From UHGV virus genome UHGV-0311442: DNA of 64,000 bases. One strand, 5' to 3'. The position numbers and the translations under genes were made by a program. The notes under the pieces are model-generated. The model was not told where the DNA came from. It did no database searches and was given only the letters and a program-made list of their open reading frames with translations. Source of the DNA: a virus. Numbering within the stretch: position 1 is the stretch's first letter; each line of letters starts with the position of its first letter. This document shows positions 18,231 to 58,653 of this stretch, one piece after another.

Positions 18231-18267
18231 CTCACCTAAGTAATATATATCTGAAATTATTTTTAAT
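18231..18267 (-). promoter_or_regulatory. conserved promoter-like motif, copy 1
   Basis: minus-strand reading ATTTCAGATATATATTACTTAGGTGAG, then a 5'-UTR hairpin and RBS of 17722..18183. Confidence 0.45.
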
Positions 18268-18276
18268 ATTAACGAA

Positions 18277-18307
18277 CAAAAAATAAAAGGTGGGGGTAAA
18301 CCCCCAC
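18277..18307 (-). terminator. rho-independent terminator
   Basis: hairpin GTGGGGG-taaa-CCCCCAC with T-run on minus strand. Confidence 0.55.
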
Positions 18308-18312
18308 CGATG

Positions 18313-18891
18313 TTATACATCGAACCGGTACTGCCGGGAGTTAATGAGGAACTCGGTATTCAGCTCAATCCATTCGAGTAAATCACCCAACGGTAATCGG
18401 TTTGGGTTTTCTAACTCAATAGACGCTACCGGATAAGAGTTTACTAATTCCGTAATTGCCTCAATACCCTCTTGCGTTCCGTCGTCTTCTAAGGTGATTG
18501 TAAACGGCATATCGGTACGATCCGCATTAGGATTGTACAAACTGACTTTCGTTGCTTGGACAAACGCAGTCAGGTCGTCACGTATAATGCGTGTATCAGG
18601 CGCTAGAACTACCCAGAGATGTTGTCCTGGCTGGAGTTTACGTTTTGCGTAGTTTAAGAACGGGTTAGCCGGTAAGCTTTCCAAACCACTGCAAATGTTC
18701 CGTAAATGAATCCCTCGTGGGTCTTTATAGTCCACGCTGAAGATTCCTACCGGTTCCTTCGCTGCCTGTTTTATCAGAAAGACCAATACCGTGTCCGCTC
18801 TTTCTGGTAAGGAAAGCTCTATTCCCTCAAGCTCCCCATCGACGAGGTTTTCCAACCAAACGTCTTTTCGCATTTCTATTAATCGGTACAC
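18313..18891 (-). CDS. hypothetical protein (192 aa), GTG start
   Basis: GTG at 18891 preceded by GAGGTG at 5 nt. Confidence 0.5.
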   Translation of the reverse strand: MYRLIEMRKDVWLENLVDGELEGIELSLPERADTVLVFLIKQAAKEPVGIFSVDYKDPRGIHLRNICSGLESLPANPFLNYAKRKLQPGQHLWVVLAPDTRIIRDDLTAFVQATKVSLYNPNADRTDMPFTITLEDDGTQEGIEAITELVNSYPVASIELENPNRLPLGDLLEWIELNTEFLINSRQYRFDV

Positions 18892-18903
18892 GGTACCACC
18901 TCA

Positions 18904-19677
18904 CTATTGATTAAGTTTTACATCGGCAATAAACAGCAATTGTTTACCATGTTGCTGCACTTCTTTCCAACCTAGTTTCATAGCAGCGTCAACAACATCT
19001 AACATGCTGTAACGGGACATCAACGCGGTTGATTTTGTTCCTGACATTAAATAAAGCGGCTCATTAGGGCAACGGTCTCGAGCATCAGGAAGTTCTCGAA
19101 TAACCGCTGAGCCTTCGGGTGCGGTAACAACGTGAATCACGGTAAATGGTCTCTTATGCGTTAAATAGATACGAAATCCAACGTGTTCAGATTCATGAAA
19201 GATTTTCTTCACAACCACATCTTTTAGTGTTGTCTGAACATCATCCCCAGGTAATATCGTGGATTCACGAGAAACGAAACAACGACTATTTTCAATCGTG
19301 GAGAAATAATTACGTATCGGCAAACTGGCGTTATGATCGCGCAGTTTTTTGCTCAATAGATCGAAGTTCAGTTCTTTAACTTTTTCTAACCACTCTTTGG
19401 CTTGTTGAATGTAATAACTACCAACAGCGCGATAAGTTAATACCTTACCTGTGCTCACTTTCCAAAGCTTGATGCTTAGTGAATTTGGCTTATAGCGACG
19501 ATACTCACCCTGCGTATGGTTGATGCGCTCGTAACGCTCTACATCATCAACTGGTGCAGATTCGACCGATTGTAATTGCAGCGTACGATCTAATCTATCG
19601 GCAAATAGTAGTGATGATAGCGGGCCTTCGATCATATACGGTTCGGTTTTAAAGATATCGTCTAAATGGACTTTCAT
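18904..19677 (-). CDS. GW...QLLF-motif paralog family member (257 aa)
   Basis: C-terminus AMKLGWKEVQQHGKQLLFIADV shared with three neighbours. Confidence 0.55.
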   Translation of the reverse strand: MKVHLDDIFKTEPYMIEGPLSSLLFADRLDRTLQLQSVESAPVDDVERYERINHTQGEYRRYKPNSLSIKLWKVSTGKVLTYRAVGSYYIQQAKEWLEKVKELNFDLLSKKLRDHNASLPIRNYFSTIENSRCFVSRESTILPGDDVQTTLKDVVVKKIFHESEHVGFRIYLTHKRPFTVIHVVTAPEGSAVIRELPDARDRCPNEPLYLMSGTKSTALMSRYSMLDVVDAAMKLGWKEVQQHGKQLLFIADVKLNQ

Positions 19678-19744
19678 TTCTATTTCCTTCTTAACAAAAG
19701 CCGCGACTAAAGCGCGGCAGTTAGAGAAAGTGTAGTTTCACTTA

Positions 19745-20896
19745 TTAAAGGTCAGCAACAAACAGCAGCTGACTGCCGTACGGTTCGACAGATTTCCAAC
19801 CGTAATCTTTACCGATCGTCGTTAGATGGCCGGTATTTAACTTTTTGTCAACCATCCGCAGACGCATCATTAGCGTATTGGATTCTGCCGCATCGAGTAA
19901 CAACGCAGGTTCTTTTTCAGTGCGGTCATCCGCTTTCGGGAAGAAACTGTAATACTGACTTTTGGGCAGTTCGATTGTCAACGTATAGTTTTTCTTTGTA
20001 ATGAATAACGCCATCCCTTCGAAATTACAATCGAAACGATATTCCCAACCCGCCTCGGCTAAAACGTCTTTTAGCATTTCCATGACTTTAAGCTGGTTAA
20101 CGCTAGGCAGTCGGTAAGCTGCAAGGTTACTTGGAAATATGCGTATACCGTCGACGACACTATCGGTGGTTTCGTCAATAAGTTCAGGATAACGTTGCGA
20201 GAAAATATGATCGCTCTTGCTTTTCTCTTCGATGTCACGAATGAATTGGGCTATTTCGTCTCTTAAGCCAGACACTTGATTTTCTCCTTCGACTTCAATA
20301 ATCTGGTGGGGTTCGCCGCTAATTAAAATGTGGTAAACGATGTCGTCGGTAGAACGGTAAGTGAGTTTGATAGCTTTATCACTTAACATTTCGTAGCGGA
20401 AGAAACTTTCGTACCAAGTTGACCCGAAATCGTTTCGTGTAAGTTCCTGCTCAACTTTGATGGTTTTTGCTTCAAAACCAATTAACCCACTTAATAACGC
20501 GTGTTCTGGTTTAGTTAAAATGTTCGCACCGTGAAAGGGCACTTTCTCAAGCTGAAAACATAAATTACTGACTTTACCACTTGGGAAGACCTTAAACATA
20601 ATCTTCCGGCTGCTACTCTTTTCCCTAACAACGAGTTTACGGTAATTTAGTCCACAATTTGTGTAAACCGCGAACTTGTAACCTTCAATTTCTTCATCGT
20701 AAGTACAGACATCGACAGGTGCGATAATCTCATTGTATTCAGTAAGTACACAGCAGCCCAAGTTATAACCAAACAACTCACGTTGTAATGAAGATTCGAT
20801 GGTTAAGCTTGGTAGTGACCAAGTCCGATTATAGCATCTGTCCATCAGTTCTTTTAGGATCTTGGCATGTCCTGGCTTAGAAATAATATTTCGCAT
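19745..20896 (-). CDS. GW...QLLF-motif paralog family member (383 aa)
   Basis: C-terminus GKDYGWKSVEPYGSQLLFVADL. Confidence 0.55.
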   Translation of the reverse strand: MRNIISKPGHAKILKELMDRCYNRTWSLPSLTIESSLQRELFGYNLGCCVLTEYNEIIAPVDVCTYDEEIEGYKFAVYTNCGLNYRKLVVREKSSSRKIMFKVFPSGKVSNLCFQLEKVPFHGANILTKPEHALLSGLIGFEAKTIKVEQELTRNDFGSTWYESFFRYEMLSDKAIKLTYRSTDDIVYHILISGEPHQIIEVEGENQVSGLRDEIAQFIRDIEEKSKSDHIFSQRYPELIDETTDSVVDGIRIFPSNLAAYRLPSVNQLKVMEMLKDVLAEAGWEYRFDCNFEGMALFITKKNYTLTIELPKSQYYSFFPKADDRTEKEPALLLDAAESNTLMMRLRMVDKKLNTGHLTTIGKDYGWKSVEPYGSQLLFVADL

Positions 20897-20926
20897 TTTT
20901 ACTCTCCTTTAGGGTTTTTTTGTTAC

Positions 20927-21481: not shown

Positions 21482-21510
21482 GGTATATTCTCCTTTTTCG
21501 GTTTTCTTAA

Positions 21511-22248
21511 TTACGCGGTTTTAATTAACAGCAGATAGTCCTTCGTAATCTCAGCACAACCCCACCCTCTCATCGCGGCGATTTTACGAAGATCAATTTT
21601 CTCGTGATATCTCAATAAGGGATCGCCTGAGTTAATCTCAACCAGGTGTGTGGCTTTAGAAATCGTTTCTACATCAGGGATCTGTTTTGCTAAGTCGGAT
21701 GCAATTAACTCGATGATACGGTATCCCTCTAACACAGAAACATAGATGCGCAAACCATATAGCGTGCCTTCGTCTTCTAATGGACAAAGATCGATGCCGG
21801 GTCCAAGCAGTGATAACTCGACGTTATCGGGAAGGTTTTCTGCATTTCGGAGTAACCCTATCCCATTTCTAAACAGAGGGAAGTAAGAGAATAGTGGTGG
21901 TAAAGCCCAACCGTTCCCAATAAGCACATCAGCGATACTCGTAGGTGTGTTCGCAAGAAGACGAATGTGGTCAGCCACAACTTCAAGTTCGGCGTCACTG
22001 ATCAACTTATAGATTAACATGACACTGGTTTCGGTATTAATAACAAAGAAGACGCGGTTGGCGTAACTGCCTATCACGTATTCGTCAATCATACAGTCGA
22101 TAACGTCACTGTCTGGATAATCTTCAGGTTTAATTGTTCCAGCATCGATTAACTTAGCAGGTTGCGATTGTTTTATTAGTTCGTTAACCACCGTAGAAGA
22201 AAGTTCTAAACTGGTGTTGGTAAAGATATCGTCTAATAATTCTTTCAT
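21511..22248 (-). CDS. GW...LL-motif paralog family member, divergent (245 aa)
   Basis: C-terminus AAMRGWGCAEITKDYLLLIKTA. Confidence 0.5.
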   Translation of the reverse strand: MKELLDDIFTNTSLELSSTVVNELIKQSQPAKLIDAGTIKPEDYPDSDVIDCMIDEYVIGSYANRVFFVINTETSVMLIYKLISDAELEVVADHIRLLANTPTSIADVLIGNGWALPPLFSYFPLFRNGIGLLRNAENLPDNVELSLLGPGIDLCPLEDEGTLYGLRIYVSVLEGYRIIELIASDLAKQIPDVETISKATHLVEINSGDPLLRYHEKIDLRKIAAMRGWGCAEITKDYLLLIKTA

Positions 22249-22516
22249 GATTTACTCGCTAATCCCAATGAAGGGAAGGCTATTATTATGGATTGTAAAA
22301 GAGGTATAAGGAAGTCACTACGTTCCTCTGGGAAGAGTATGTCGGTATACTCCGTATACCTCCGCTATTTATATCCGTATACATAATGCCCCCTACCCCC
22401 TACCGGTATCCCGAGTAGCAGAATAAAGGGACATAATGTAATTTTTAGTAACCTTTAACGAAAGGTACTAAAAGGGTAACGTGTCCGTAGGGACTGAACT
22501 GGTACTTCAGTCCCTA

Positions 22517-22548
22517 TTCACTTAAGTAAAATATATCTGAAATCAATT
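22517..22548 (-). promoter_or_regulatory. conserved promoter-like motif, copy 2 (variant)
   Basis: minus-strand reading GATTTCAGATATATTTTACTTAAGTGAA followed by a hairpin; lies about 265 nt upstream of 21511..22248. Confidence 0.4.
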
Positions 22549-22568
22549 CCGATCTAAGGAACGTCCCG

Positions 22569-23534
22569 ATGGAGAAATCCAGTGTTGATTTTTTCTCAAT
22601 TGGTATCGTCGCGGAAGACAAACCCCGTGGTACAGATCGGGTAAAAGTGATACCAATTGAAACTAACTTTGCTAACCCTACCGTGGTGCAATCTGTTTCT
22701 TCAGCAACTGAAAAGACGCATGAAACGTCTGGTGCAACAGATAACCTAACCATTAAGACGGGTAACACGATAACAGCAAAGTGGTGGAAGTTTAACTCCA
22801 ACCGAATTAATTCCCCTGACGTTAAACGAGAAGACTACGTTATCTTGTTACGTTTGGGGAAAACCGATATTTATTTTTGGATTGATCTGAACTTCGCTAA
22901 CGTTAAGCGATTAGAAGATGCGGTTTATGCGTGGTCGGCTGACCCTGAAAACCAAATGGCGGATGACTTGTCCAATGCGTATGTGTTGAACGTTTCGACG
23001 ATTGACAAACATATCACGCTAAGAACAAGTATGGTGAATGGCGAGAAAGCGGCGTGGTTGTTTCAGTTTGATAATGCAAACGGTACGTGGCAGTGCGTTG
23101 ACCATAAAGGAAACAAGTATTACATTAACTCGGTTGAAGATGATCTCGGGTTTGAGAATGCGATGCTTTCAAAAGTGAACATCAACAAAGAAGATGCGTT
23201 CATTTATTCAAAGCGTTCTATTAACCTGGAAACGAAAACGATTAATGAAAAATGCGAAGTTCGCAATACAGAAGCAGCGAAATCCGTTACGTTTAAAACA
23301 CAAACCTGGTTAACGGAAGCGGGAAGTTCGACAACGTTTAAAACGCCGAACTTTAAACAAGAAGGGAAGGAAGCGATGTTCACCGGTAATTTGGAAATCG
23401 CTAAGAACTTCAAATACGGTGGTACGGGTGAAGGTGTGGGTGTCTTTACGGTTAAAGATGCTGTTATTTCCGGTATTACCTTTAGCGTTCACATTCACCA
23501 AGGTAAACATGGTCCGACATCACCTCCGCAATAA
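22569..23534 (+). CDS. hypothetical protein (321 aa), possibly virion-associated
   Basis: ORF track; AAGGA RBS; plus-strand gene isolated between minus-strand blocks. Confidence 0.5.
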   Translation: MEKSSVDFFSIGIVAEDKPRGTDRVKVIPIETNFANPTVVQSVSSATEKTHETSGATDNLTIKTGNTITAKWWKFNSNRINSPDVKREDYVILLRLGKTDIYFWIDLNFANVKRLEDAVYAWSADPENQMADDLSNAYVLNVSTIDKHITLRTSMVNGEKAAWLFQFDNANGTWQCVDHKGNKYYINSVEDDLGFENAMLSKVNINKEDAFIYSKRSINLETKTINEKCEVRNTEAAKSVTFKTQTWLTEAGSSTTFKTPNFKQEGKEAMFTGNLEIAKNFKYGGTGEGVGVFTVKDAVISGITFSVHIHQGKHGPTSPPQ

Positions 23535-23740
23535 TTCCCCTTTTTCTTACGTTGTTTTTATATATTGTGACCTGACGTTGGTAAAACTTTTTATCAACAC
23601 TTTTCTTAAACCCATCGTTTAGTTAAGCAGGCCACTTTTTTCGCGCACTCTACTCCTCCCTACGGGGAGGAGCTATCTTATGCTTCGGTTGTAACACACG
23701 TCGGTCTTAGACCACCTTCCTTTTGAAATGGAGAGCTGTT

Positions 23741-23950: not shown

Positions 23951-23952
23951 GC

Positions 23953-28300: not shown

Positions 28301-29654
28301 AACGTATTTTATCGGTGGTGAAACATACGACGTTCCGTTGATGACGATTAACGTCAGTGAACGTTTTCCGAAATTGAATACAGAAATCTACGCAGGGATT
28401 TTTGTTGATATTGTTGACAACAAAGCGAAGTATATTGTCCACGACAGCTACAGTCAGGCTGAAACGGATACCATGACGCGTGTAGGGTTGATTGGTGTTA
28501 ACGACATTTCTGAGGTGTTCGTTACGGAGATGCGTAATGTCACACGGTTGGGCGATTTCCGTGAACTGAAAGATCATAAAGCCGATGACAACGCACACAT
28601 TCAACGCTCCGCGTCACGTGCAGCGCTTGGGTTAGCTAACTTAACCGTAGGTGCGCCTTGCTGGGCTTCTGGACTCCAGGCAGTAGTACGCGGTGAAGCA
28701 GATTGGCGTTATGTTGTCGATGGGCAGTATAAAGCCTTAGACGGGGTGAAATACGACCAGCTCGCATCCAAGTGGATTTTTGACGCGAAAGGGGTAAGCG
28801 ATAACCTGCACGGGTTTATCCACAGCATGTTCCCAGCTTTTAAGAACGCAGGAATGCGGGTAAGTTGGGAAACAGAAAGTAACGCAAAAACCGGTACGGT
28901 GCTAGAAACTGTTTTAGGATGCTGGAAAAACACCGACGGCGAGTTTATGCGGTTGTCGTTACTTATCACTCGTGGTTATCGTTTAACTGACAGCAACGGT
29001 GAATATTGTTACGCAGGGTTCGGTTTGAACTTCGGTAGCGGGAAATCGGTAGTGTTAGGTTTCACACCAACGAAGCGTGTTACGCCTGCACCGTGGAATA
29101 CGTTACAACCTGACGTAACGTTTACCCACACCCGTGCTGCAAATAACGCAATAACGTTTAACGCAACATTGACCTTAGCGGGCACTACGTATACCATCGT
29201 GGTGTTTTTATCTGCGACTGATAAATACGTAAGTTGCACGGCAGCAGGGGGAGCTACGCAGAAAATCCCTCTAACTGACCGTTTAACTGGGTTCAATATC
29301 GCACCTATCGTTAACGATCCGTATACCCCTATTTACTACGGTTTAGGGGGACTTTATGAGGATGAAGTTCGTGCCAACATCCGTTCTACGGCAGATAGCG
29401 CAACCGCGAATAAAGTCTATGGTACGTTGTTAGACTATATTAGCAACTATTCCTCATTAAATCGTGTGCGCGTTATGGAATTGACCGGTGTCAGTTCAGA
29501 CCCCGAAACGCTTAATGCGTTAGTGGCAACTGAATTTAATAACAACCTGGCGGATTACGCTGCGTTACCGATACCTCCTTATCTTAACAAGGAGCGCGTA
29601 ATGTCGTTTATCGACACCAACAATAAAGTGCAGGCGGTAATCATTCGCGATTAA
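25332..29654 (+). CDS. tail fibre protein (1440 aa)
   Basis: AGGAG RBS; tail-fibre-type repeat motifs (GNVANTPDVDLPISTAQRAEL; GNATTAQRGLIKFG); N-terminal PFF module shared with the next three genes. Confidence 0.65.
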   Translation: MAVVLDPHFKKPGNKITGEAVAVFGTKYRMLVPAHAPFFTTSLVVKSGGKTLTIGDDYVITHPYETGMLRTAYLIHGMIWIVNDKYKSNFTVDYHAVGCGQATQQQITAERELNKDKYPSACQWDTVIGDVYFPPVDIQFDWENWKGELELMQAIAGLGDSLGEVVSRLNPIARNTLDLEYRANSKVITSEQYAVYDNKGGFTYNTARHRYSLSYKTATFNDYALSVKHRIPAILPDMTKLNPNEQIDWMLCYANGGASILRLQLKQRKISLVLTVAIGSGSTNYDYTLINGLTDDELKNDIDFSVTRQPGNGVYVIVVKTNKQTMDYTFNVDTPPDEFSAGYSKTDVAKWLKFKTNINLNWYAAENDYIQIRSLPGAPEPDIDNDVYQLIVKYHQLVEQLYRNAPAHEHVTRKDNPHTDTWGPIRALELNGIATDAALAYGKTKQQLTDYVNAKYPTQATLTAQKKLLRESPSKNVNGTITTLPGFTSFTTEVDPVSMSKYVSPYFSESYVSSGHRYHGALRYTGAKSGFSANFNAVPANLQDIDFIVTGRKTASGNEAVGRVGLRFYENPGSNSGKYVEITGEVWSGTLTIELALHGYGSPVPAVRYISQAPNPAIPDGDFTLRFQLKRTGNVFDVVITVNSKTYSGRINFNNMDAALEALENQHHFKSLINNVADAVTISSQNKGNTVTIKKAPDVVDETRLGAQFVVDPKSIKFIGQGSTDVNVANNPVTFQAGTNQLVLYPDDRGLLWRGKKLLDPTTVAPYLPGNTAGGTGLFYASSTTTVTITGSGIKASPFVATFILPTATDTTALAAWQLTDEFGTAENLAATPALIEKLDAEFTGKLVAVKSYINDMQLTSSVTIDKITFGLGNVANTPDVDLPISTAQRAELDKYSPKVHQHPFTAFGTGNATTAQRGLIKFGLDVDDATLALDGSVVMAQTSQIEKLERAVSGVDSEARLDIIRFGESGNDLIDVTVKDKILVTLPASTYFIGGETYDVPLMTINVSERFPKLNTEIYAGIFVDIVDNKAKYIVHDSYSQAETDTMTRVGLIGVNDISEVFVTEMRNVTRLGDFRELKDHKADDNAHIQRSASRAALGLANLTVGAPCWASGLQAVVRGEADWRYVVDGQYKALDGVKYDQLASKWIFDAKGVSDNLHGFIHSMFPAFKNAGMRVSWETESNAKTGTVLETVLGCWKNTDGEFMRLSLLITRGYRLTDSNGEYCYAGFGLNFGSGKSVVLGFTPTKRVTPAPWNTLQPDVTFTHTRAANNAITFNATLTLAGTTYTIVVFLSATDKYVSCTAAGGATQKIPLTDRLTGFNIAPIVNDPYTPIYYGLGGLYEDEVRANIRSTADSATANKVYGTLLDYISNYSSLNRVRVMELTGVSSDPETLNALVATEFNNNLADYAALPIPPYLNKERVMSFIDTNNKVQAVIIRD

Positions 29655-29667
29655 GGAGATTTTTTTG

Positions 29668-47735: not shown

Positions 47736-47773
47736 TACCCTACTCCCGATAAGGAGTAGGGTATATTGATTTT
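47736..47773 (+). terminator. rho-independent terminator
   Basis: hairpin TACCCTACTCC-cgataa-GGAGTAGGGTA followed by TATTGATTTT. Confidence 0.6.
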
Positions 47774-51271: not shown

Positions 51272-51278
51272 AGAGAGG

Positions 51279-51762: not shown

Positions 51763-51779
51763 TGTACGATTTTAGTTAA

Positions 51780-52892
51780 TTAACGAAATTTTTGACAAGC
51801 AGGGCAATCGCAGCCTATGCCAGATGATATTTCTCTAAAGATCGCGTCGATCGAGTGCTCATTATTCTTAAGAAAACGAGCTCCCGCCAAGTCACGCAGA
51901 TGAGTTTTTAACTTTCCGATAATACCGGGTTCATAGTTGAGTAGAATGGTAAGTGTATTGTCTGTGTAAGTCCACTGACGGACTTTCTCAGGAAACCAAC
52001 GAGCGATATCACGCATAAACTTATCGGCATCTTCTTTCCCAATAGTAGTGATTGTCAGAAGACGTAGACGATTGTCAACAATCTCATTAATGAGGTTGCT
52101 AATTTCTTCGTCAAGAGCAGCGTCCCACCATTTCCATTTAATGATGAGTTTTTCGCCCTCGAGTTTAGTCTCTACTTTGGTAGGATAGAAAGCTGTCAAG
52201 GTATCATTAATCGCTTCGGCCTCTGGGCCAGTGTAAGTAAAGGAATACGGTTCTTCGAACCATTTAATAACGTCAGGATCATTATCAACAAGCACGGTTA
52301 GCGTGCCGTCGACATAATTAGACCCACGAATTTTCTCCTTGTATTCGTGAACAGCACTACGCATGAGTTCATCAGCGGTATCTTTTCCGATACCATGAAT
52401 CGAAATAAGTCGAACGGCATCGTTATCGATCAGCTCAGCGATAGAACTAATTTCTTCCATGAGATTACGATCGTCTTTCTTCAATCGAACGACGATCTTA
52501 TCGTTATCCGAATAAATGCCTAAATCGTCGGGATAGAGGGTCTCTAACGCTTCTTTAATTTCCTTAATCTTCTTACCTTCGTACCAGAGGACGTGTGGTT
52601 CGTCTTTCTGCTGTTCTTCTACTTTCGGTTGTTCAGTCTCGGTCGTTTCCACCCGAGTGTTCGTGGTACCTTCTGCTGGGTTGAGTAACTCACCGATTTC
52701 TTTCGCGATAGTGTCGCAAAGATAATCGTTGCAGTGAGTCCAGTAGAATACGATGCTTTCATCGTTGACCTGCTCTACACGGAAATGTACACCTTTATCC
52801 AGGAATATGCGATAAAGTTGATCAAGTAACTGTGCTTCAGGAACCGGACGGATTTCAGTTTTAACGAGCGGGGTAATTTCGATATTAAACAT
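51780..52892 (-). CDS. hypothetical protein with internal duplication and C-terminal Cys cluster (370 aa)
   Basis: two ~65-aa repeats; C-terminal CDCPACQKF. Confidence 0.55.
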   Translation of the reverse strand: MFNIEITPLVKTEIRPVPEAQLLDQLYRIFLDKGVHFRVEQVNDESIVFYWTHCNDYLCDTIAKEIGELLNPAEGTTNTRVETTETEQPKVEEQQKDEPHVLWYEGKKIKEIKEALETLYPDDLGIYSDNDKIVVRLKKDDRNLMEEISSIAELIDNDAVRLISIHGIGKDTADELMRSAVHEYKEKIRGSNYVDGTLTVLVDNDPDVIKWFEEPYSFTYTGPEAEAINDTLTAFYPTKVETKLEGEKLIIKWKWWDAALDEEISNLINEIVDNRLRLLTITTIGKEDADKFMRDIARWFPEKVRQWTYTDNTLTILLNYEPGIIGKLKTHLRDLAGARFLKNNEHSIDAIFREISSGIGCDCPACQKFR

Positions 52893-52913
52893 GTCATTTT
52901 TCCTTTTGGTAAA

Positions 52914-53342
52914 TTAGCTGTAATTGTGCTTAAAGAACTCTAAAGCACGCTGGTCGTTTGTAATCGCCGTTGTGGACATTCGTTTTAACGCCTGGCGGCA
53001 GTAAGGGTCGTTCAGAATACGTTGCTGCCAAGCGTTGACTATTTCCGTCACTGTTTCCCCTTCTACAGCAGTGTTAAGTTTATCGAGGCAGTGCCGTCCT
53101 AACAGAAACGCAACTGCGTAATCGGTAAACATCTCGGTGCCGAAATCCCCGTCGGGATAATCGCAACGTTTACGTACCGACGTTGCGGTAATGGAGTTAT
53201 AAGCGGTTTTTATTATCTCGTGGAACTGTTCCACCGTTAAGATGTTAACGTCAGTACCTGAAAGCGTAAGCGATGCCAGTACAGGAATACTGGCTGGGTA
53301 CTGACGGATGTAATCACGCAAATCTGAATTGAGCGTTTTCAT
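52914..53342 (-). CDS. hypothetical protein (142 aa), paralog of 51279..51710
   Basis: see 51279..51710. Confidence 0.55.
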   Translation of the reverse strand: MKTLNSDLRDYIRQYPASIPVLASLTLSGTDVNILTVEQFHEIIKTAYNSITATSVRKRCDYPDGDFGTEMFTDYAVAFLLGRHCLDKLNTAVEGETVTEIVNAWQQRILNDPYCRQALKRMSTTAITNDQRALEFFKHNYS

Positions 53343-54090
53343 TCATGAACCCTTTTGTTTTTATCCAATATAAGCAATTTGCACCAACCTGAACTGGCTC
53401 GATCCTATCAAGTTCTTCCATCAGAGCCAGATAAGTTTGCCAAACGGTTTGACGTTCGAAGAAAAATGATGTTGTGCCATTAGACCTAAGACATGCACGT
53501 ACTAAGTGCTCGGTTTGTGAAAACTGTATATTAACGTTGTTCAGGACACGTTGTATAGTATCAGAGTCGTAATGCGCGAAACGATCTTTGTGTACCAGAA
53601 CCATCTCTATAGGCGAGGAATCGTCATTGACTGAAAAAGGTTCGTCAATGCGAATAAGGTTATTCCGGTGAGGTACCCCATCGTAACCGAGCGTATAGAC
53701 ATCCATACCTTCCCCCGGGTTACAGTCGAAATACTCCAGAATTTTATCAGCGTTTTTCTCCGCCGAACGTTTAAAGTAAACAATATAAACGGTATGACTA
53801 ATCTTCTCAACTTCGTATACTTTTTCGGAGAACGATCTGAAAATTGCCATGACGTTTAATCTTCCTTTGTCTTTAGCAACGTAACTTGCAACTAAACACG
53901 TTGCTTCACCACGAAGAACATCGTCAATGAACTCTTTTGCTCGTTTTAATTCATCCTCGTTAAAACCACCGATAGTGAGCTCATTCCCATAAATCTGATA
54001 AGCAAGATGTGGAGTAACGTTTTTCAGGAAACTCGTAATGATGTGCGTGTATGCCCAAAGACTACTATTCTTAAACTCGATAGTTTTCAT
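53314..54090 (-). CDS. hypothetical protein (258 aa)
   Basis: ORF track. Confidence 0.5.
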   Translation of the reverse strand: MKTIEFKNSSLWAYTHIITSFLKNVTPHLAYQIYGNELTIGGFNEDELKRAKEFIDDVLRGEATCLVASYVAKDKGRLNVMAIFRSFSEKVYEVEKISHTVYIVYFKRSAEKNADKILEYFDCNPGEGMDVYTLGYDGVPHRNNLIRIDEPFSVNDDSSPIEMVLVHKDRFAHYDSDTIQRVLNNVNIQFSQTEHLVRACLRSNGTTSFFFERQTVWQTYLALMEELDRIEPVQVGANCLYWIKTKGFMNENAQFRFA

Positions 54091-54134
54091 TTTATTTTCC
54101 TTTTGGTTTTACAAGCTGAAACGTTAATTTACGC

Positions 54135-54629
54135 TTAGAGGTGTTTTCCGATAACTTCCGAAACTAATTCGTAAAGGTCATCGTCACTGCACACGTCTAC
54201 GCTAATTCCGATATCGATACTACGACTGCGGAACCCTACTTTGAGCGTTTTACCGAATTCGGTTTGTAGGGCTTTATAGAGTCTATTCTTATCTTCTTTA
54301 AAGAGAGGAACAGGTAGTCTAACAGTGAACTTGTAATGTTCTTTCGAAACAAGTTCGTTAGAATAATTAAAACGTTTAGCCACACGGGTTCCGACAATCT
54401 GTGTTATCAGCTTAAACATTTCTTCGTCACTATACGGAGTTGCGCCATAACCGATATCAATAGAATTTCTACGGAATCCTGCGCAGAATAATGCACCGAA
54501 TTGCTCACGGAATTCTTTGTATAGAACATCTTTTTCTACATCCCACAGCCCGTAACCCAAGTCAACAGTGAATTTGTATTTTTCTTTGTCAACTAATTCG
54601 TTAGTGTAATCAAGTCTAGTGAAGTTCAT
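54135..54629 (-). CDS. tandem-duplicated ~80-aa domain protein (164 aa)
   Basis: two repeats sharing NELV-KE-YKFTV...LYK...FG...GFR-SIDIG...CSD..L. Confidence 0.55.
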   Translation of the reverse strand: MNFTRLDYTNELVDKEKYKFTVDLGYGLWDVEKDVLYKEFREQFGALFCAGFRRNSIDIGYGATPYSDEEMFKLITQIVGTRVAKRFNYSNELVSKEHYKFTVRLPVPLFKEDKNRLYKALQTEFGKTLKVGFRSRSIDIGISVDVCSDDDLYELVSEVIGKHL

Positions 54630-54676
54630 GGTATATTCTCCTAAAATGGTTTTCGTTAAGTGAGAGCTTTTGTACT

Positions 54677-54710
54677 CTCACCTAAGTAATATATATCTGA
54701 AATTATTTTT
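54677..54710 (-). promoter_or_regulatory. conserved promoter-like motif, copy 3
   Basis: minus-strand reading AATAATTTCAGATATATATTACTTAGGTGAGAG, then hairpin and RBS of 54135..54629. Confidence 0.45.
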
Positions 54711-54711
54711 A

Positions 54712-54993
54712 TTAAAAACCCGCAATAAAACTGCCTAGCGAGACACGTTGCAAGTATTTTGGTTTGCGTGCCAGGTAACAGTTCTTAGGATTACCTATTG
54801 CCATCTGTGCAACTGCACGTTCTAAACGCGGCGCTTCTAAGATGGCACGATAGTTCCCTTCGTAGTGCATCAACCACGCACACTCTTCAACAAAACGTTT
54901 TGCTTCTCGGTATTCTAACGTACGAATTAACTTCTTGCCCCGGTATTGTTTTACATCACCGTTTTGACAAAATACAATAGTTTCACGCTTCAT
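54712..54993 (-). CDS. hypothetical protein (93 aa)
   Basis: ORF track. Confidence 0.45.
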   Translation of the reverse strand: MKRETIVFCQNGDVKQYRGKKLIRTLEYREAKRFVEECAWLMHYEGNYRAILEAPRLERAVAQMAIGNPKNCYLARKPKYLQRVSLGSFIAGF

Positions 54994-55294
54994 TGATAAT
55001 CTCCCAGTTCGCTCTTATAATCTCACGTTTACAGTCTTCAATATCTTTACGGTAAAACGTCGTTTTTTCTTTTAATAGCTTTAATATCTCCTCTTTAGGC
55101 AATTTCCCCTCACAACCCAATTCAGCAATAGCACAAACGAGAACAGTCAAATATTCTACTGAACCGGTTTTCGCACGATATTCAGAGATAAGTTCTTGTT
55201 GTGTTTCAACGGTTTCTTCTAATAACTTGATATATTCTTCGTGCTTTGCGCACGCTTTGCATTTTCCGAAACCTAGCAATTTAAAAACCACTAT
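54983..55294 (-). CDS. hypothetical protein with CxxC (103 aa), GTG start
   Basis: AAGGAGG 5 nt before GTG at 55294; the track ATG at 55330 lacks an RBS. Confidence 0.45.
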   Translation of the reverse strand: MVVFKLLGFGKCKACAKHEEYIKLLEETVETQQELISEYRAKTGSVEYLTVLVCAIAELGCEGKLPKEEILKLLKEKTTFYRKDIEDCKREIIRANWEIINEA

Positions 55295-55592
55295 TACCTC
55301 CTTTGGCAATCCAGGTCGCCACACGCACATGAGCGTCTTGAAAAGACGATATGAGCAAGATCACACCGCCTAACGTACGAGGGACGCGTAAGGCTTCGTA
55401 ACGACGGCAGTAAGAACGTACGCAATACTCGGAACCTAAGATAACGATTTCGCAGTATTCTGAACGAATAGGTAGTAGTTGAGAAACGAGTTTATCGCAC
55501 GTTTCTTTATTGTCTTCTAACAACCCACCACGGAGAATATAGTTGACAATGTTCTCAGGTACCGATGTGTTTGTGATTTTACTTTCCATCAT
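55281..55592 (-). CDS. hypothetical Cys-containing protein (103 aa)
   Basis: AGGAG RBS. Confidence 0.5.
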   Translation of the reverse strand: MMESKITNTSVPENIVNYILRGGLLEDNKETCDKLVSQLLPIRSEYCEIVILGSEYCVRSYCRRYEALRVPRTLGGVILLISSFQDAHVRVATWIAKGGNSGF

Positions 55593-55978
55593 TAAACTCC
55601 TATAGTGATCTCCGTAATGTGCATTCTTCGCATCTCACGGGTCATTCTGTCTATTGCTCGTTGACACTCGAATAAATTGTCGTAGTATTTCTGGGCGGTA
55701 ACGTTGAATATAATCCGACCTTCTTTCAATTGTTTAGCAACGACTTTTGTAGTTTCCGATTCAAACAGCAAACCACCTTCCCTGCCGATCTTAACTAAAA
55801 CGTCACGAATGATAACGTTTATAAGCTCACCATTTGGGGAAACCACGATTTCCGTATACCAATCGCCCTCGCTAACGATACGTTGTACCCTTTCACCGCA
55901 TAGCCAGTTTTTAACTTTCCCGTTAACATACAGTTGGGCTTTCAGTAACAAACGTCTTTTAATGTAAGATAAACGCAT
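55592..55978 (-). CDS. hypothetical protein (128 aa), paralog of 55982..56356
   Basis: shared GDWYTEI...IGREGG...F...TAQ core. Confidence 0.55.
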   Translation of the reverse strand: MRLSYIKRRLLLKAQLYVNGKVKNWLCGERVQRIVSEGDWYTEIVVSPNGELINVIIRDVLVKIGREGGLLFESETTKVVAKQLKEGRIIFNVTAQKYYDNLFECQRAIDRMTREMRRMHITEITIGV

Positions 55979-55981
55979 CTT

Positions 55982-56356
55982 TTAAACCTCCACCGTAGTT
56001 CGTTCAGTTTCTTTAATAAACTTACTAAGCGATTCATTTAAACGTTTTACTCTTTCACCAAACTTAACTACTGTATCGTAAAGGCATTGTGCTGTACCGT
56101 TAAATAAAATCGGACCGTTTTTTAACTCCAGGGCAGAAACTTGATAGTATTCAGAGTTGAAGATTGCTCCTCCCTCGCGTCCTATTCTAACAACTACGTT
56201 ACGAACTTGTATGTTTTGTAACCCACCGTTTGCTAACGTAATAATCTCTGTATACCAGTCACCCGATTTAACTACCGTTGTGACATTCTTGCCGCAAGCC
56301 CAGGTTTTAAACGAAGTGTCTAGCCAACATCTGAATTTGTATAACAGTAATGACAT
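55982..56356 (-). CDS. hypothetical protein (124 aa), paralog of 55592..55978
   Basis: GGAGGAG RBS; see above. Confidence 0.55.
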   Translation of the reverse strand: MSLLLYKFRCWLDTSFKTWACGKNVTTVVKSGDWYTEIITLANGGLQNIQVRNVVVRIGREGGAIFNSEYYQVSALELKNGPILFNGTAQCLYDTVVKFGERVKRLNESLSKFIKETERTTVEV

Positions 56357-56398
56357 ATCGTTACTCCTCCCTCTCAGGATTTCCTGAGAGGGGTTATA

Positions 56399-56680
56399 TC
56401 ACAGTTTCTCTTCTATTGTATCTAATCGAACTAACGCATCGTGACTGACTTTCCGTGCGTGTCCGATTGTCCCACCGAGGGCTTTTGTTGTTGGGTCTAA
56501 GGTATTCAGACGGTGATACTGATAATCGATATCACGTATACAACGCGCCTGTTGTTTTACCATCCGAATTAATAGTCGTTTGGTTTGACGATTGTTACTA
56601 AGCTCCTGCCGTAATCGCGTGTTTTCTTTATAAAGCTCCTGTTGACGTGAGTTAATTAAACCCAACAACCAATCTAACAT
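56399..56680 (-). CDS. hypothetical coiled-coil protein (93 aa)
   Basis: ORF track. Confidence 0.45.
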   Translation of the reverse strand: MLDWLLGLINSRQQELYKENTRLRQELSNNRQTKRLLIRMVKQQARCIRDIDYQYHRLNTLDPTTKALGGTIGHARKVSHDALVRLDTIEEKL

Positions 56681-56682
56681 TT

Positions 56683-57198
56683 TTACCCCCGGTGCAAGAA
56701 AATACGGTTAGTGTTTTCGAATTTCGGTTCTGTCCACTCTAGTTCCCAGTAAGCCTGGTTAATATCGCGAGACGTGAGTTTCAAATTCGAAACACCGGGG
56801 ATATCGATCTGCTGCAGTAAATTAATAATCGTCACCAGCTCTTTACGAGGACGGTTCCAGATAACTTCAAGATACTCTTTCAGACGCTCCGGATAAGCGA
56901 CAGGTCGAATATAAACTAGTCCAGCGGGATACTCAATTGCTGAGGGTGTTCTAGGCACTAACCAAACCCAGTCTTTTAATAACGGTCCTGGGTGATAGTT
57001 AGAGAGTTGAGTAAGCGCGTTTGCGACCGAACAACAACGGAAGTAGGTGATATCCCAATCGTGTTCATGGCAATTTCGCGCAACGATAACTTTTAAACGG
57101 TCAATAGGTTTACCGTCGATGGTCGTAACACCAGGTTGATTCGCCAGAATCTGACGTTCACGTTTAGTGTAAAGATTCATGTTAATATTTACTGACAT
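56683..57198 (-). CDS. hypothetical protein (171 aa)
   Basis: ORF track; conserved initiation context. Confidence 0.5.
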   Translation of the reverse strand: MSVNINMNLYTKRERQILANQPGVTTIDGKPIDRLKVIVARNCHEHDWDITYFRCCSVANALTQLSNYHPGPLLKDWVWLVPRTPSAIEYPAGLVYIRPVAYPERLKEYLEVIWNRPRKELVTIINLLQQIDIPGVSNLKLTSRDINQAYWELEWTEPKFENTNRIFLHRG

Positions 57199-57244
57199 TT
57201 AATGCTCCTTTAGGTAAATGGTGGGGTAATTAAGCTACGGTTCC

Positions 57245-57688
57245 TTAAATCATGCCTGGGAATTCGAAATCGATTTTATCTAAAAGTTTGTAGTCGTCTT
57301 TTAGCTGAAGCATTAGCGTATTCTTAAACAGTTCAAGCGAACCGATAAAGTAAGCCGTATAGCAGCTACCACGAACAGAAGAGGAAAGACCCAAGTCTCT
57401 TAAACACTGTTTCAAGATTTCATGTTCTTCAGCGGTACCGAAAAGTTGGAAATTGATAACGGTAATCTGTTTATTAATGATTGCCGATAACCATTCTTTA
57501 ATTCTTCTCGTGGTTATTCTTTCTTTGAAATCACTAGCTTCTGGCAGCCAGGTAATGTGAACAAACGGTGCATCGTAATCCACGAGAACTTTCTGCTGCC
57601 AACGTACTTGCATCAAACCACGAATACGGTTTGCTAACGTTTCAGAATCACAAAGTAGCATAATGCCGTTGGTAGTATTTGGTTTCAT
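57245..57688 (-). CDS. hypothetical protein (147 aa)
   Basis: AAGGAAGGG RBS. Confidence 0.5.
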   Translation of the reverse strand: MKPNTTNGIMLLCDSETLANRIRGLMQVRWQQKVLVDYDAPFVHITWLPEASDFKERITTRRIKEWLSAIINKQITVINFQLFGTAEEHEILKQCLRDLGLSSSVRGSCYTAYFIGSLELFKNTLMLQLKDDYKLLDKIDFEFPGMI

Positions 57689-58536
57689 AATTGCCCTTCC
57701 TTCTTAATGTAATCTTCAACCAACTTATCAAACACGATTTTTATCTTCTCGCGTTCTTCTTCGCCCAATTCACCGGAACAGGTTAGTCCGTTTATCTTTC
57801 CGTACCGTAATTCCAACACATACTTCAACCGATGACGTAAGGCTTGTTCAAAATGCGTTGGAATATAAATTGGTTCGAAGTTGTGCAATAAAATAAAATC
57901 GTCTTCGGTGTGTTTAGGAGGTTCGAATTTTACTCTATCTAAGATAGTAAGCCAGCGTTGTCTGTCGACTAGCCGATCGTCCCAATAAACAGGTTTTGTC
58001 TTAGAGGGGGTAAGTGTATTGTAGTCACTGGAATCGGAGATACGGAAATTTGCTGTGACGTAAGTCTTCGAGAGTAACGAGAGAAGACAAATCGTGCCTT
58101 CTTTAGGGTAGCTTAAAAGCTCTCCGAGTACGTCTTTAGCTTTCTTGAAGTAGTCTCTAATATAGTCTTCAGCAATTGGTTGAATTTCTACTTCCATACA
58201 GCTAATTTGGGGCCCGTCTATCCGTAAAGGAATTTTTAGTTCAGCAATATACTGCCTATCAGATGTATAAGCTCGCGTAATAATAGGGTACGTAACAGGC
58301 TTGGCCAAATGACGATATTCATCATTTCTAATGACTGAGTAACGTCCAAACCCGCCTTTATTCGATTTTGAAAAAGCGTAAAGGTCTTTTAGATACTCTA
58401 GATACTGGTCATCGGTCATTTCGTCGGTATTAAATTCACGAATGTAAAGTCGTTCAACAAATCCCTTTGTTTGTTCGTAGTAATAACTGGGGTCCCTATT
58501 TGCTAGAATGTGCGGGAGATAATACGGGTGTGACAT
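57685..58536 (-). CDS. hypothetical protein (283 aa)
   Basis: AAAGGAGGA RBS; first gene after promoter-like motif. Confidence 0.55.
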   Translation of the reverse strand: MSHPYYLPHILANRDPSYYYEQTKGFVERLYIREFNTDEMTDDQYLEYLKDLYAFSKSNKGGFGRYSVIRNDEYRHLAKPVTYPIITRAYTSDRQYIAELKIPLRIDGPQISCMEVEIQPIAEDYIRDYFKKAKDVLGELLSYPKEGTICLLSLLSKTYVTANFRISDSSDYNTLTPSKTKPVYWDDRLVDRQRWLTILDRVKFEPPKHTEDDFILLHNFEPIYIPTHFEQALRHRLKYVLELRYGKINGLTCSGELGEEEREKIKIVFDKLVEDYIKKEGQL

Positions 58537-58584
58537 CTAATCCTCCTTTCGGCTATAACTAATGGAGTGAACGTAAATTTCACT

Positions 58585-58616
58585 CTCCCCTAGGTAATAT
58601 ATATCTGAGAAAAAAT
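58585..58616 (-). promoter_or_regulatory. conserved promoter-like motif, copy 4
   Basis: minus-strand reading TTCTCAGATATATATTACCTAGGGGAGAG then hairpin GAGTGAA...TTCACTC and RBS. Confidence 0.45.
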
Positions 58617-58653
58617 ATAAAAACCGTAGGATGGACTTAGTCCATCCTACGGT
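58617..58653 (-). terminator. rho-independent terminator
   Basis: hairpin CCGTAGGATGGAC-tta-GTCCATCCTACGG flanked by A/T runs. Confidence 0.6.

What the first reader, a model, noticed from the sequence alone, without database searches (positions are those of the whole stretch)
18231..58618. Conserved 26-nt promoter-like element in four copies
A near-identical motif occurs at 18231-18267, 22517-22548, 54677-54710 and 58585-58616. Each copy sits after a terminator hairpin and before a short stem-loop and the RBS of the first gene of a minus-strand block, the expected layout for a phage-specific promoter with a structured 5' UTR. It does not resemble a sigma70 -35/-10 pair and may be recognised by a phage-encoded or phage-modified polymerase.
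Basis: seen in the sequence. Interest (0 to 1): 0.6.

Follow-up and report, generated by a model that had tools for sequence, protein, structure and literature searches.

The report
Jumbo-phage early promoters with 5' hairpin leaders
The four repeated motifs are real and are most likely the early-gene promoters read by the RNA polymerase that phiKZ-like giant phages carry inside their virions. This is a known kind of element, found here in an uncultivated relative of Salmonella phage SPN3US.

Summary
Four minus-strand copies of (A/T-rich)TTTCAGATATATATTACYTAGGTGAG lie in non-coding gaps of a 93%-coding window, where chance predicts none. The window is a jumbo phage collinear with Salmonella phage SPN3US at about 50% amino-acid identity.

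The motif belongs to the published predicted early-promoter family of phiKZ-related phages. Its core TATATTAC-N6-G is identical to phiKZ's own copies and fits the mapped AR9 consensus AAATATATATTAT-N6-G(+1). In SPN3US, 7 strong and 16 weaker copies all lie on the main coding strand. They precede small unknown genes and the non-virion RNA polymerase genes, never the virion polymerase or major structural genes. The window's nearest relatives encode the virion polymerase subunit gp241.

I add four things:
- Two weaker copies at 521-556 and 10013-10048.
- A predicted start at the G seven bases after TTAC.
- A covarying stem-loop at the very 5' end of each strong-class transcript, with a fixed leader of about 50 nt.
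- A 271-nt structured, highly conserved leader behind the 22.5 kb copy, function unknown.

No transcript data exist, so start sites, timing and polymerase assignment are inferred.

The parts
18231..18266 (-). Strong-class ('class A') early promoter, positions -33 to +3. The predicted start site is G at 18233.
   Evidence: Exact 26-mer. Matrix score 54.4 bits. A 42-nt stretch is 100% identical to an intergenic site in Erwinia phage phiEaH2.
18215..18233 (-). 5'-terminal stem-loop of the predicted transcript (GAGAGUUA-CGAU-UAACUCUU). It is followed by the RBS, with the ATG at 18183, giving a 50-nt leader.
18289..18308 (-). Intrinsic terminator of the upstream unit (GGTGGGGG-TTTA-CCCCCACC plus a T run).
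22517..22552 (-). Class A early promoter, the most diverged copy (TATTTTAC core). The predicted start site is G at 22519. It lies in the divergent gap between the baseplate gene (22569-23534, plus strand) and the minus-strand block.
   Evidence: An exact 21-mer is conserved in three IMG/VR relatives.
22488..22516 (-). An 11-bp stem-loop at +4 to +32 of the predicted transcript.
   Evidence: 100% of cells pair in 4 orthologues, and 3 of 11 pairs show compensatory double changes.
22249..22519 (-). A 271-nt leader with no RBS-preceded ORF, strongly structured. It contains a block of about 130 nt (22306-22433) that is 99-100% identical in relatives whose flanking DNA is only 79-93% identical.
   Evidence: Fold z = -4.5. 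The minus strand folds better than the plus strand. Conservation is shown. Diverged homologues exist in SPN3US and in an Asesino-like contig. Their consensus structure has 17 pairs, 5 compensatory, and invariant G-U pairs. There is no Rfam match.
54677..54712 (-). Class A early promoter. The predicted start site is G at 54679. It overlaps the stop codon of ORF 54712-54993, and no terminator lies upstream.
54662..54679 (-). 5'-terminal stem-loop (GAGAGU-ACAAAA-GCUCUC). The RBS follows, with the ATG at 54629, giving a 50-nt leader.
58585..58620 (-). Class A early promoter. The predicted start site is G at 58587.
   Evidence: The orthologous position in SPN3US (109879) carries a weaker-class copy with the same hairpin-loop sequence AAATTTACGTT.
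58565..58585 (-). 5' stem-loop (GAGUGAA-AUUUACG-UUCACUC). The RBS follows, with the ATG at 58536, giving a 51-nt leader.
58621..58655 (-). Strong intrinsic terminator (16-bp stem plus a T run) that closes the tail-fibre gene block upstream.
521..556 (-). Weaker-class ('class B') copy, CTAAAAATATTCTTAGATAGATATTATCCAGGTGTA. The predicted start site is G at 523. The leader is short, with the ATG at 500.
   Evidence: The SPN3US orthologue is at 184030.
10013..10048 (-). Class B copy, TTCCAAACTCTTTTAAATAGATATTATCATTAGGGC. The predicted start site is G at 10015. It lies upstream of the transglycosylase-like gene.
   Evidence: The SPN3US orthologue is at 174940.

Best explanation
These are early promoters of a phiKZ-related (chimallivirus-type) jumbo phage. 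The polymerase that reads them is most likely the multisubunit RNA polymerase packaged in the virion and injected with the DNA (vRNAP).

The recognition element is an A/T-rich stretch followed by TTTCAGATA-TATATTAC at about -25 to -7. Transcription is predicted to start at the conserved G seven bases after TTAC, at window positions 18233, 22519, 54679 and 58587 on the minus strand.

The strong copies are the first part of a stereotyped cassette:
- The transcript begins GAGAG and immediately folds into a 5-11 bp stem-loop.
- A short linker and an AAGGAG ribosome-binding site follow.
- The ATG lies about 50 nt from the start.

The 5'-terminal stem-loop most probably protects these first transcripts from 5'-end-dependent decay by host RNase E and RppH. 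That step is inferred.

What is shown: the motif itself, its placement, its membership of the family, and selection on the hairpin. What is inferred by homology: the start site, early timing, and which polymerase reads it.
For: 1. The window is a SPN3US-type jumbo phage. Its 1440-aa ORF matches SPN3US virion protein gp96-equivalents at 52-54% identity. Gene order follows SPN3US from about 184 kb back to about 105 kb.

2. Megablast of 8 kb of the window against 50,697 phage records found nothing except the motif. It matched at unannotated intergenic sites of Erwinia and Salmonella jumbo phages. blastn with the 43-nt motif finds 149 records, nearly all 220-300 kb phiKZ-related phages, with 4-7 sites per genome in the SPN3US and Erwinia groups.

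3. The motif matches published predicted early promoters (PMC7058600 Table 2):
- N1M2: TBYAWWWWWTTTCARRYAKATATTATYWAAGTGWA
- OBP: BSHAWWWWWTTTYARRYAKATATTATYWWADTG
- 201phi2-1: ...TTTRARR_BTATATTACDWHDGTG
- phiKZ: TATATTAC

In phiKZ's own sequence, 7 copies of TATATTAC-N6-G lie upstream of PHIKZ005, 006, p02, 031, 036, p12 and 054.

4. Mapped early promoters have the same geometry. AR9 is AAATATATATTAT-(6N)-G+1, and the phiKZ and phiR1-37 start sites lie 6 nt after the element (PMC5312081). The G at that position is present in all 6 window copies and in all 23 SPN3US copies.

5. In SPN3US, 7 class A and 16 class B copies all lie on the plus strand, and 22 of 23 are intergenic (read). They precede small hypothetical genes and RNA-polymerase-annotated genes that are not among the five virion subunits (29014-33356, and 17704-19299 via 15768). 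None precedes the virion polymerase genes (gp42, 218, 240, 241, 244; PMC5694885), the major head, sheath or terminase genes. This is the phiKZ pattern, in which vRNAP transcribes the non-virion polymerase genes.

6. The window's nearest relatives (89-97% and 93% nucleotide identity) encode a full-length homologue of vRNAP subunit gp241 at 76-77% identity.

7. Genes downstream of the window copies are small and lack an assigned function, as is typical of early genes (PMC5312081).

8. Hairpin. Of the distinct class A transcripts, 81% have a contiguous stem of at least 6 bp starting at +1 to +4, against 22% after shuffling +6 to +34. There are about 25 different arm pairs. Compensatory changes occur among orthologues. 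Allowing G-U lengthens 26 of 42 stems, whereas allowing A-C lengthens 12 of 42, which favours a sense-strand RNA structure.
Against: - There are no transcript 5' ends, timing data or inhibitor data for this phage or for any SPN3US-type phage in the literature I could search.
- The window itself contains no RNA polymerase gene. The polymerase is inferred from relatives.
- As of the papers I read (the AR9 study, 2017, PMC5312081; PMC7598289), no vRNAP had been purified. Even in phiKZ and AR9 the link between promoter and vRNAP therefore rests on timing and on rifampicin and chloramphenicol experiments.
- Why two sequence classes exist is unexplained. A different polymerase form could read one of them.
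- The stabiliser role of the hairpin is inferred from E. coli mRNA biology (my own knowledge). phiKZ early leaders show no comparable hairpin: 29% have stems of at least 6 bp against 20% by chance, with n=7.
Confidence: 0.85

Rival explanations
1. The motifs are promoters for the phage's second, non-virion RNA polymerase (a middle class), or one of the two sequence classes is read by a modified polymerase form rather than by the injected enzyme.
For: Two distinct sequence classes exist, TATATTAC with a hairpin and long leader versus GATATTAT with a short leader. It is unresolved in phiKZ which enzyme reads middle promoters (PMC4666361). In 201phi2-1 not all non-virion polymerase genes have an early promoter nearby (PMC11512511).
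Against: Both classes share the geometry and core of mapped early promoters of phiKZ and AR9 (PMC5312081). Middle and late phiKZ motifs (AAAATTACC; TATG) are different (PMC4666361). Class B copies sit directly before the non-virion polymerase genes in SPN3US, which that enzyme cannot transcribe before it exists. The two classes replace each other at orthologous positions: window 58585 versus SPN3US 109879.
Confidence: 0.07
2. The motifs are strong host sigma70 promoters, with TATATT as the -10 box and an A/T-rich UP-like element, used by the host polymerase at the start of infection.
For: TATATT matches TATAAT at 5 of 6 positions, and the upstream region is A/T-rich. The 54.7 kb copy is flagged by the consensus scan at 9 of 12.
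Against: Only 1 of 4 copies is flagged, at the minimum threshold, in a scan whose total hits equal chance (34 found against 35.7 expected). There is no conserved -35 box. Conservation runs through +5, which is not typical of sigma70 promoters. The same core serves phages of Pseudomonas, Salmonella, Erwinia, Klebsiella and Bacillus. phiKZ and AR9 infections are rifampicin-insensitive (PMC5312081, PMC13282480).
Confidence: 0.04
3. The repeats are primarily recombination cassettes, like the promoter-terminator 'PeSL' repeats of T4-type phages. On this view their conservation reflects gene shuffling, or a protein or RNase recognition site, rather than promoter function.
For: A 38-42 nt stretch is identical to phiEaH2, which otherwise shares no nucleotide similarity with the window. 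Gene content next to the cassettes differs between close relatives: a small ORF is present or absent after the 22.5 kb hairpin, and a second copy of the 54.7 kb-type cassette lies in a different context in contig 078609. Two copies are terminator-promoter composites. PeSLs are described in PMC2839356 and PMC4122927.
Against: This does not exclude promoter function, since PeSLs are themselves early promoters. Strict orientation, the fixed distance to the RBS and the match to mapped promoters are not explained by recombination alone.
Confidence: 0.04

Closest known systems
Early (vRNAP) promoters of phiKZ and 201phi2-1
   Same: The core TATATTAC is identical, followed by 6 nt and a G. The upstream region is A/T-rich with a TTT block. 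Sites lie before operons of small unknown genes and point the same way as those genes. There are tens of copies per genome (PMC8244752; PMC11512511; PMC7058600).
   Different: Here conservation is longer: TTTCAGATA upstream and YTAGGTGAGAG downstream. The strong class is fused to a 5'-terminal stem-loop and a fixed leader of about 50 nt. phiKZ leaders in the first 50 kb do not show this. The hosts are enterobacteria rather than Pseudomonas.
Predicted early promoters of Pseudomonas phage OBP and Klebsiella phage N1M2
   Same: They match the window's weaker class (class B) and the shared frame almost position for position: AWWWWWTTTCARRYAKATATTATYWAAGTGWA (PMC7058600 Table 2).
   Different: Those consensus sequences have TATTAT, whereas the four reported copies have TATTAC, as phiKZ does. 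Neither has been tested experimentally.
Bacillus phage AR9 early promoters, AAATATATATTAT-(6N)-G+1
   Same: The ATATATTA core and the 6-nt spacer to a G start site are the same. This is the best-mapped example. Transcription there is chloramphenicol-independent, so the injected enzyme carries it out (PMC5312081).
   Different: AR9 has uracil-containing DNA, is not nucleus-forming, and is a distant relative.
T7/T3/SP6 promoters (single-subunit phage polymerases)
   Same: A long, nearly invariant phage-specific promoter that includes the first transcribed bases (GAGAG here, GGGAGA in T7; T7 sequence from my own knowledge).
   Different: The enzyme class is different: a multisubunit beta/beta'-like polymerase rather than a single-subunit one. 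There is no sequence similarity. No candidate single-subunit polymerase ORF lies in the window.
PeSL promoter-terminator cassettes of T4-type phages
   Same: Repeated composite early-promoter and stem-loop modules that flank variable blocks of small early genes (PMC2839356, PMC4122927).
   Different: PeSL promoters are sigma70-type and the stem-loop is the upstream terminator. Here the conserved stem-loop lies downstream of the start site. A role in shuffling was only touched on.

Membership tests
phiKZ-type virion-RNAP early promoter | An extended, highly conserved A/T-rich element centred near -10 (core TATATTAC or TATATTAT) | tested here: met
   The core is identical to that in phiKZ's own sequence. 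It matches the published consensus sequences (PMC7058600 Table 2; PMC7598289).
phiKZ-type virion-RNAP early promoter | Transcription start at a conserved purine 6 nt downstream of the element | tested here: inconclusive
   A G is present at that position in 6 of 6 window copies and in 23 of 23 SPN3US copies. No 5' ends have been mapped for this phage group.
phiKZ-type virion-RNAP early promoter | The genome encodes a virion-packaged multisubunit RNA polymerase | tested here: inconclusive
   None lies within the 64-kb window. Four close relatives of the window encode a 76-77% identical homologue of SPN3US vRNAP subunit gp241 (PMC5694885). The feature is met by proxy only.
phiKZ-type virion-RNAP early promoter | Located before early operons, including non-virion polymerase genes, and absent before virion polymerase and structural genes | tested here: met
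   The SPN3US genome-wide scan read against its annotation. In the window, all copies precede minus-strand blocks of small unknown genes and none precedes the plus-strand structural block.
phiKZ-type virion-RNAP early promoter | Active within minutes of infection, independent of host polymerase and of new protein synthesis | not testable with these tools
   This needs RNA from infected cells with and without rifampicin and chloramphenicol.
Bacterial sigma70 promoter | -35 and -10 hexamers with a 16-18 nt spacer | tested here: not met
   Only 1 of 4 copies reaches 9 of 12 matches. Total scan hits equal the shuffled expectation.
T7-like single-subunit RNAP promoter | A cognate single-subunit polymerase gene, and the 23-bp T7/T3/SP6-type consensus | tested here: not met
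   No ORF in the window matches. The only ORF of about 860 aa is SbcC-like, and the larger ones are virion proteins. The sequence differs from the T7, T3 and SP6 consensus sequences (my own knowledge). The whole genome was not searched.
N4 virion-RNAP hairpin promoter | A promoter formed by a DNA hairpin upstream of the start site | tested here: not met
   The conserved element is not self-complementary. The stem-loop lies at +1 to about +30, downstream of the predicted start. The N4 architecture is from my own knowledge and PMC4496689.
PeSL-type mobile regulatory cassette | Repeated promoter plus stem-loop modules at the breakpoints of gene insertions, deletions or replacements between close relatives | tested here: inconclusive
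   Some gene-content differences abut the cassettes. No systematic breakpoint analysis was possible without complete genomes.

The most novel reading that the evidence does not exclude
The strong-class copies are more than promoters. They would be an immediate-early 'promoter plus leader' cassette specific to the SPN3US, Erwinia-phage and related clades.

In this reading the transcript's selected 5'-terminal stem-loop and fixed leader of about 50 nt, with a recurrent TTAAC/AATCGACYATTA box, form a functional RNA signal. The signal could protect the RNA from host RNase E and RppH. Alternatively it could serve export or ribosome loading of RNAs made by the injected polymerase before any phage protein exists.

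The 22.5 kb copy would in addition drive a previously undescribed structured RNA (22306-22433) that is conserved across at least three genera.
Probability: 0.35. Interest if true: 0.5.

Novelty: new member of a known kind. Interest (0 to 1): 0.3.

Why it matters
For annotation, these sites mark the starts of the early transcription units of an uncultivated jumbo phage. They separate its host-takeover genes from its structural genes without any experiment.

For biology, how the sigma-less virion polymerase of nucleus-forming phages recognises promoters is still unsolved. A long, almost invariant element shared from Pseudomonas phages to Salmonella and Erwinia phages gives a well-defined template for in vitro and structural work.

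The covarying 5'-terminal hairpin and the conserved structured leader are testable additions. I did not find either described in the papers I could read.

Tried and rejected
- tRNA and Rfam scans of the whole window found nothing. A relaxed Rfam scan of 22200-22560 gave only chance-level hits.
- An exact 14-mer scan of IMG/VR (CAGATATATATTAC) was too unspecific.
- I considered the conserved 22.3 kb block as a small protein gene (MYTDINSGG...). I rejected this because the frame is broken in SPN3US and the C-terminus is not conserved.
- I considered the same block as a general late-promoter module ((T/G)ATG plus hairpin on the baseplate-sense strand). I rejected it as a repeated element because it is single-copy in both the window and SPN3US. 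Invariant G-U pairs also favour the minus-strand RNA.
- blastn of the block against isolated phages in distant mode found nothing. The homologues were found only by looking at the orthologous position.
- My first statistics for the weaker class used a wrong offset and mixed the two classes. I redid them from explicit coordinates.
- The phiKZ 2014 and OBP 2012 primary papers are not in the library. I took the consensus sequences from later papers and from the phiKZ sequence itself.


Full report
**Observation**

On the minus strand the 26-mer TCAGATATATATTACTTAGGTGAGAG occurs exactly at 18229-18254 and 54675-54700, and with two mismatches at 58583-58608. A 19-nt core adds 22521-22539, giving four matches where 100 shuffles gave none. 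A 36-nt weight matrix scores the four sites 41-54 bits. The next unrelated hit scores 5.6 bits, and the best of 20 shuffled windows scores 13.5 bits.

A greedy ORF model makes the window 93.4% coding. All four sites lie in the remaining gaps and point the same way as the downstream genes.

Two details of the description were over-generalised:
- Only the 18.2 kb and 58.6 kb copies follow a terminator. The 54.7 kb copy overlaps the stop codon of the upstream ORF. The 22.5 kb copy sits in a divergent gap.
- The 22.5 kb copy is followed by 271 nt without a gene, not by an RBS.

**What the window is**

Megablast of 52000-60000 against 50,697 phage records returned only the motif itself. It matched at unannotated intergenic sites of Erwinia phages phiEaH2, Stratton and Asesino and of Salmonella phage SPN3US and its relatives.

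The 1440-aa ORF is 52-54% identical to a virion protein of SPN3US-type phages. Gene order follows SPN3US from about 184 kb back to about 105 kb: ribonuclease, SbcC/SMC-like protein, baseplate protein, three giant baseplate or tail-fibre proteins, radical SAM proteins.

IMG/VR holds uncultivated relatives of 220-225 kb at 79-97% nucleotide identity. The window is therefore part of a jumbo phage of the phiKZ-related, nucleus-forming group, distinct from any isolate in the collection.

**What the motif is**

Every jumbo phage that encodes multisubunit RNA polymerases has a conserved A/T-rich motif of about 10 nt centred near -10 upstream of its early operons. Where transcripts were mapped, this motif proved to be the early promoter, attributed to the virion polymerase, vRNAP (PMC7598289).

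Published consensus sequences are:
- N1M2: TBYAWWWWWTTTCARRYAKATATTATYWAAGTGWA
- OBP: BSHAWWWWWTTTYARRYAKATATTATYWWADTG
- 201phi2-1: ...TTTRARR_BTATATTACDWHDGTG
- phiKZ: TATATTAC (all four from PMC7058600, Table 2)
- AR9: AAATATATATTAT-(6N)-G+1, with the start sites of phiKZ and phiR1-37 also 6 nt after the element (PMC5312081)

The window motif, AAAAATAATTTCAGATATATATTACTTAGGTGAG, fits this frame position for position. I checked phiKZ directly. In its first 50 kb, TATATTAC-N6-G occurs seven times, each in front of a gene, including the nuclear shell gene PHIKZ054.

A blastn search with the 43-nt motif finds 149 phage records. Almost all are 220-300 kb phiKZ-related phages of Erwinia, Salmonella, Pseudomonas, Cronobacter, Proteus, Klebsiella and Serratia, with 4-7 sites per genome in the SPN3US and Erwinia groups.

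**Genome-wide behaviour in a complete relative**

I assembled SPN3US from five annotated pieces and scanned it with two matrices.

Seven copies match the strong form, which I call class A: TTTCAGATATATATTACYTAGGTGAG. Sixteen match a weaker form, class B: CTnAAA...AGATAGATATTATCT-N4-GA. All 23 lie on the plus strand, which is the main coding strand, and 22 are intergenic. All have G at the predicted +1.

They precede small hypothetical genes, an HTH protein gene, and the RNA-polymerase-annotated genes that are not among the five virion subunits (29014-33356, and 17704-19299 via 15768). None precedes the virion polymerase genes (gp42, 218, 240, 241, 244; PMC5694885), the major head, sheath or terminase genes.

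This is what the phiKZ scheme predicts. The injected enzyme transcribes the early genes, including those of the second polymerase, and that second enzyme then transcribes the virion polymerase and structural genes.

The window holds no polymerase gene. Its four closest relatives each encode a full-length, 76-77% identical homologue of vRNAP subunit gp241.

Each has a SPN3US orthologue, at 184030 and 174940. The two classes replace one another at orthologous positions: window 58585 is class A and SPN3US 109879 is class B, yet both share the hairpin-loop sequence AAATTTACGTT. I therefore treat them as one family of differing strength.

**Anatomy of the strong cassette**

With +1 set at the conserved G (18233, 22519, 54679, 58587), the transcripts begin GAGAG or GAAUA and fold at once into a stem-loop.

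- Among 37 distinct class A transcripts from the window, SPN3US and IMG/VR loci, 81% have a contiguous stem of at least 6 bp starting at +1 to +4. After shuffling +6 to +34 the figure is 22%. About 25 different arm pairs occur.
- Class B shows 22% against 8%. The seven phiKZ leaders show 29% against 20%.
- Four orthologues of the 22.5 kb hairpin pair at 100% of positions, with compensatory double changes in 3 of 11 pairs and a freely varying loop.
- Allowing G-U lengthens 26 of 42 stems, whereas allowing A-C lengthens 12 of 42. This favours an RNA structure on the sense strand.

After the hairpin come a short linker, often containing TTAAC or AATCGACYATTA, then an AAGGAG-type RBS. The ATG lies at +48 to +56, and at +51 or +52 in the three ordinary window copies.

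**The 22.5 kb copy**

Here the hairpin is followed by a 271-nt leader that folds far better than shuffles (-92.6 kcal/mol, z = -4.5).

A block of about 130 nt (22306-22433) is 99-100% identical in six IMG/VR relatives whose flanking DNA is 79-93% identical. Diverged versions sit at the same divergent gap next to the baseplate gene in SPN3US and in an Asesino-like contig.

A three-lineage consensus structure has 17 pairs. Five show compensatory changes. Several G-U pairs are invariant, and these could not pair on the other strand. The minus strand also folds better than the plus strand.

The block is single-copy per genome, matches no Rfam family and is not a conserved ORF. I cannot assign it a function. 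It looks like a cis-regulatory leader or a small RNA.

**Mechanism and rivals**

The best-supported reading is that these are early promoters for the injected virion polymerase (confidence 0.85). The steps divide as follows:
- Shown: the motif, its placement, its membership of the published family, and selection on the hairpin.
- Inferred by homology: the start site, early timing, and the identity of the polymerase.
- Inferred from E. coli mRNA biology (my own knowledge): a stem-loop within 2-4 nt of a 5' end blocks RppH- and RNase E-dependent decay, so the hairpin would stabilise the first transcripts before any phage protein exists.

The rivals are:
- Reading by the non-virion polymerase or a modified form (0.07). 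This is disfavoured because the motif sits before the genes for that enzyme and differs from the phiKZ middle and late motifs (PMC4666361).
- Host sigma70 promoters (0.04). Only one of four sites is flagged, at the minimum score, and total hits equal chance. phiKZ and AR9 infections are rifampicin-insensitive.
- A primarily recombinational, PeSL-like role (0.04; PMC2839356, PMC4122927). This would not exclude promoter function.

**Verdict**

The element is a new member, in an uncultivated SPN3US-like phage, of a promoter family already described for phiKZ-related phages. A specialist would not be surprised, and I score interest at 0.3.

The selected 5'-terminal hairpin with its fixed leader, and the conserved structured leader at 22.3 kb, are the parts I did not find described. 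They are worth a modest follow-up.

Noticed in passing
window 22306-22433 (minus strand), within the leader 22249-22519: A non-coding block of about 130 nt that is 99-100% identical in six relatives whose flanking DNA has diverged by 7-21%. Diverged homologues lie at the same baseplate-adjacent gap in SPN3US (161.44-161.56 kb) and in an Asesino-like contig. The central hairpin covaries: GGTATAC/GTATACC, GGTATCC/GGATACC, GGTGAC/GTCACC. It has a G5-N2-3-G5 tract, is single-copy per genome, and matches no Rfam family. It is a candidate structured RNA of unknown function.
   Followed up: partly
window 521-556 and 10013-10048 (minus strand): Two weaker promoter copies of the AGATAGATATTATC type with short leaders and no clear 5' hairpin. 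SPN3US has 16 such copies, including those before its non-virion RNA polymerase genes.
   Followed up: yes
window 6545-6566, 7162-7183, 47738-47761: A family of near-identical, partly bidirectional terminator hairpins, CCCTACTCC-loop-GGAGTAGGG. The same stem sequence occurs next to class A promoters in phiEaH2 and SPN3US-type phages. This parallels the conserved terminator motif reported for phiKZ, but with a different sequence.
   Followed up: partly
L154, L156, L157, L158 (IMG/VR relatives), orthologous to window ~22440-22487: The relatives carry a small ORF of about 25-30 aa (for example MSTEKKSGLDEVIELFKRYNPAIPR) with its own RBS between the 5' hairpin and the conserved block. The window and contig 3300029126_000001 have a short unrelated hairpin there instead. 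This is a gene presence/absence difference immediately next to the promoter cassette.
   Followed up: no
SPN3US 165673-165760 (L139 15673-15760), orthologue of window 18.2 kb copy: In SPN3US the class A promoter and its 5' hairpin are followed directly by a terminator-like hairpin (GGCTACC-TTCG-GGTAGCC plus a T run) before the first gene. This suggests an attenuated leader or a small RNA of about 50 nt. The window copy lacks it.
   Followed up: no
window 61721-63032 and 58659-60797 (minus strand): T-even-type Gp38 tail-fibre adhesin domains (PF05268 at 5.8e-69; Gp38_N twice), and a 712-aa protein with an SASA carbohydrate-esterase domain plus DUF6645. This is a host-recognition module of T4-like type in a phiKZ-related jumbo phage. 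It ends at the strong terminator just upstream of the 58.6 kb promoter.
   Followed up: no
window ~9990-10000 (minus strand), downstream of the 10015 start: The good RBS (AAAGGAG) that precedes an ATG in SPN3US is followed in the window by CTG at the aligned position, with TAG one codon upstream. The transglycosylase-like gene may use a non-ATG start or the ATG at 9955.
   Followed up: no
class A leaders in window, SPN3US, phiEaH2 loci (e.g. window 18190-18212, 54640-54660): A recurrent box lies between the 5' hairpin and the RBS: AATCGACYATTA in SPN3US and phiEaH2, and TTAACG/TTAACC-like in the window clade. It could be a translation or RNA-binding signal. I did not test it.
   Followed up: no
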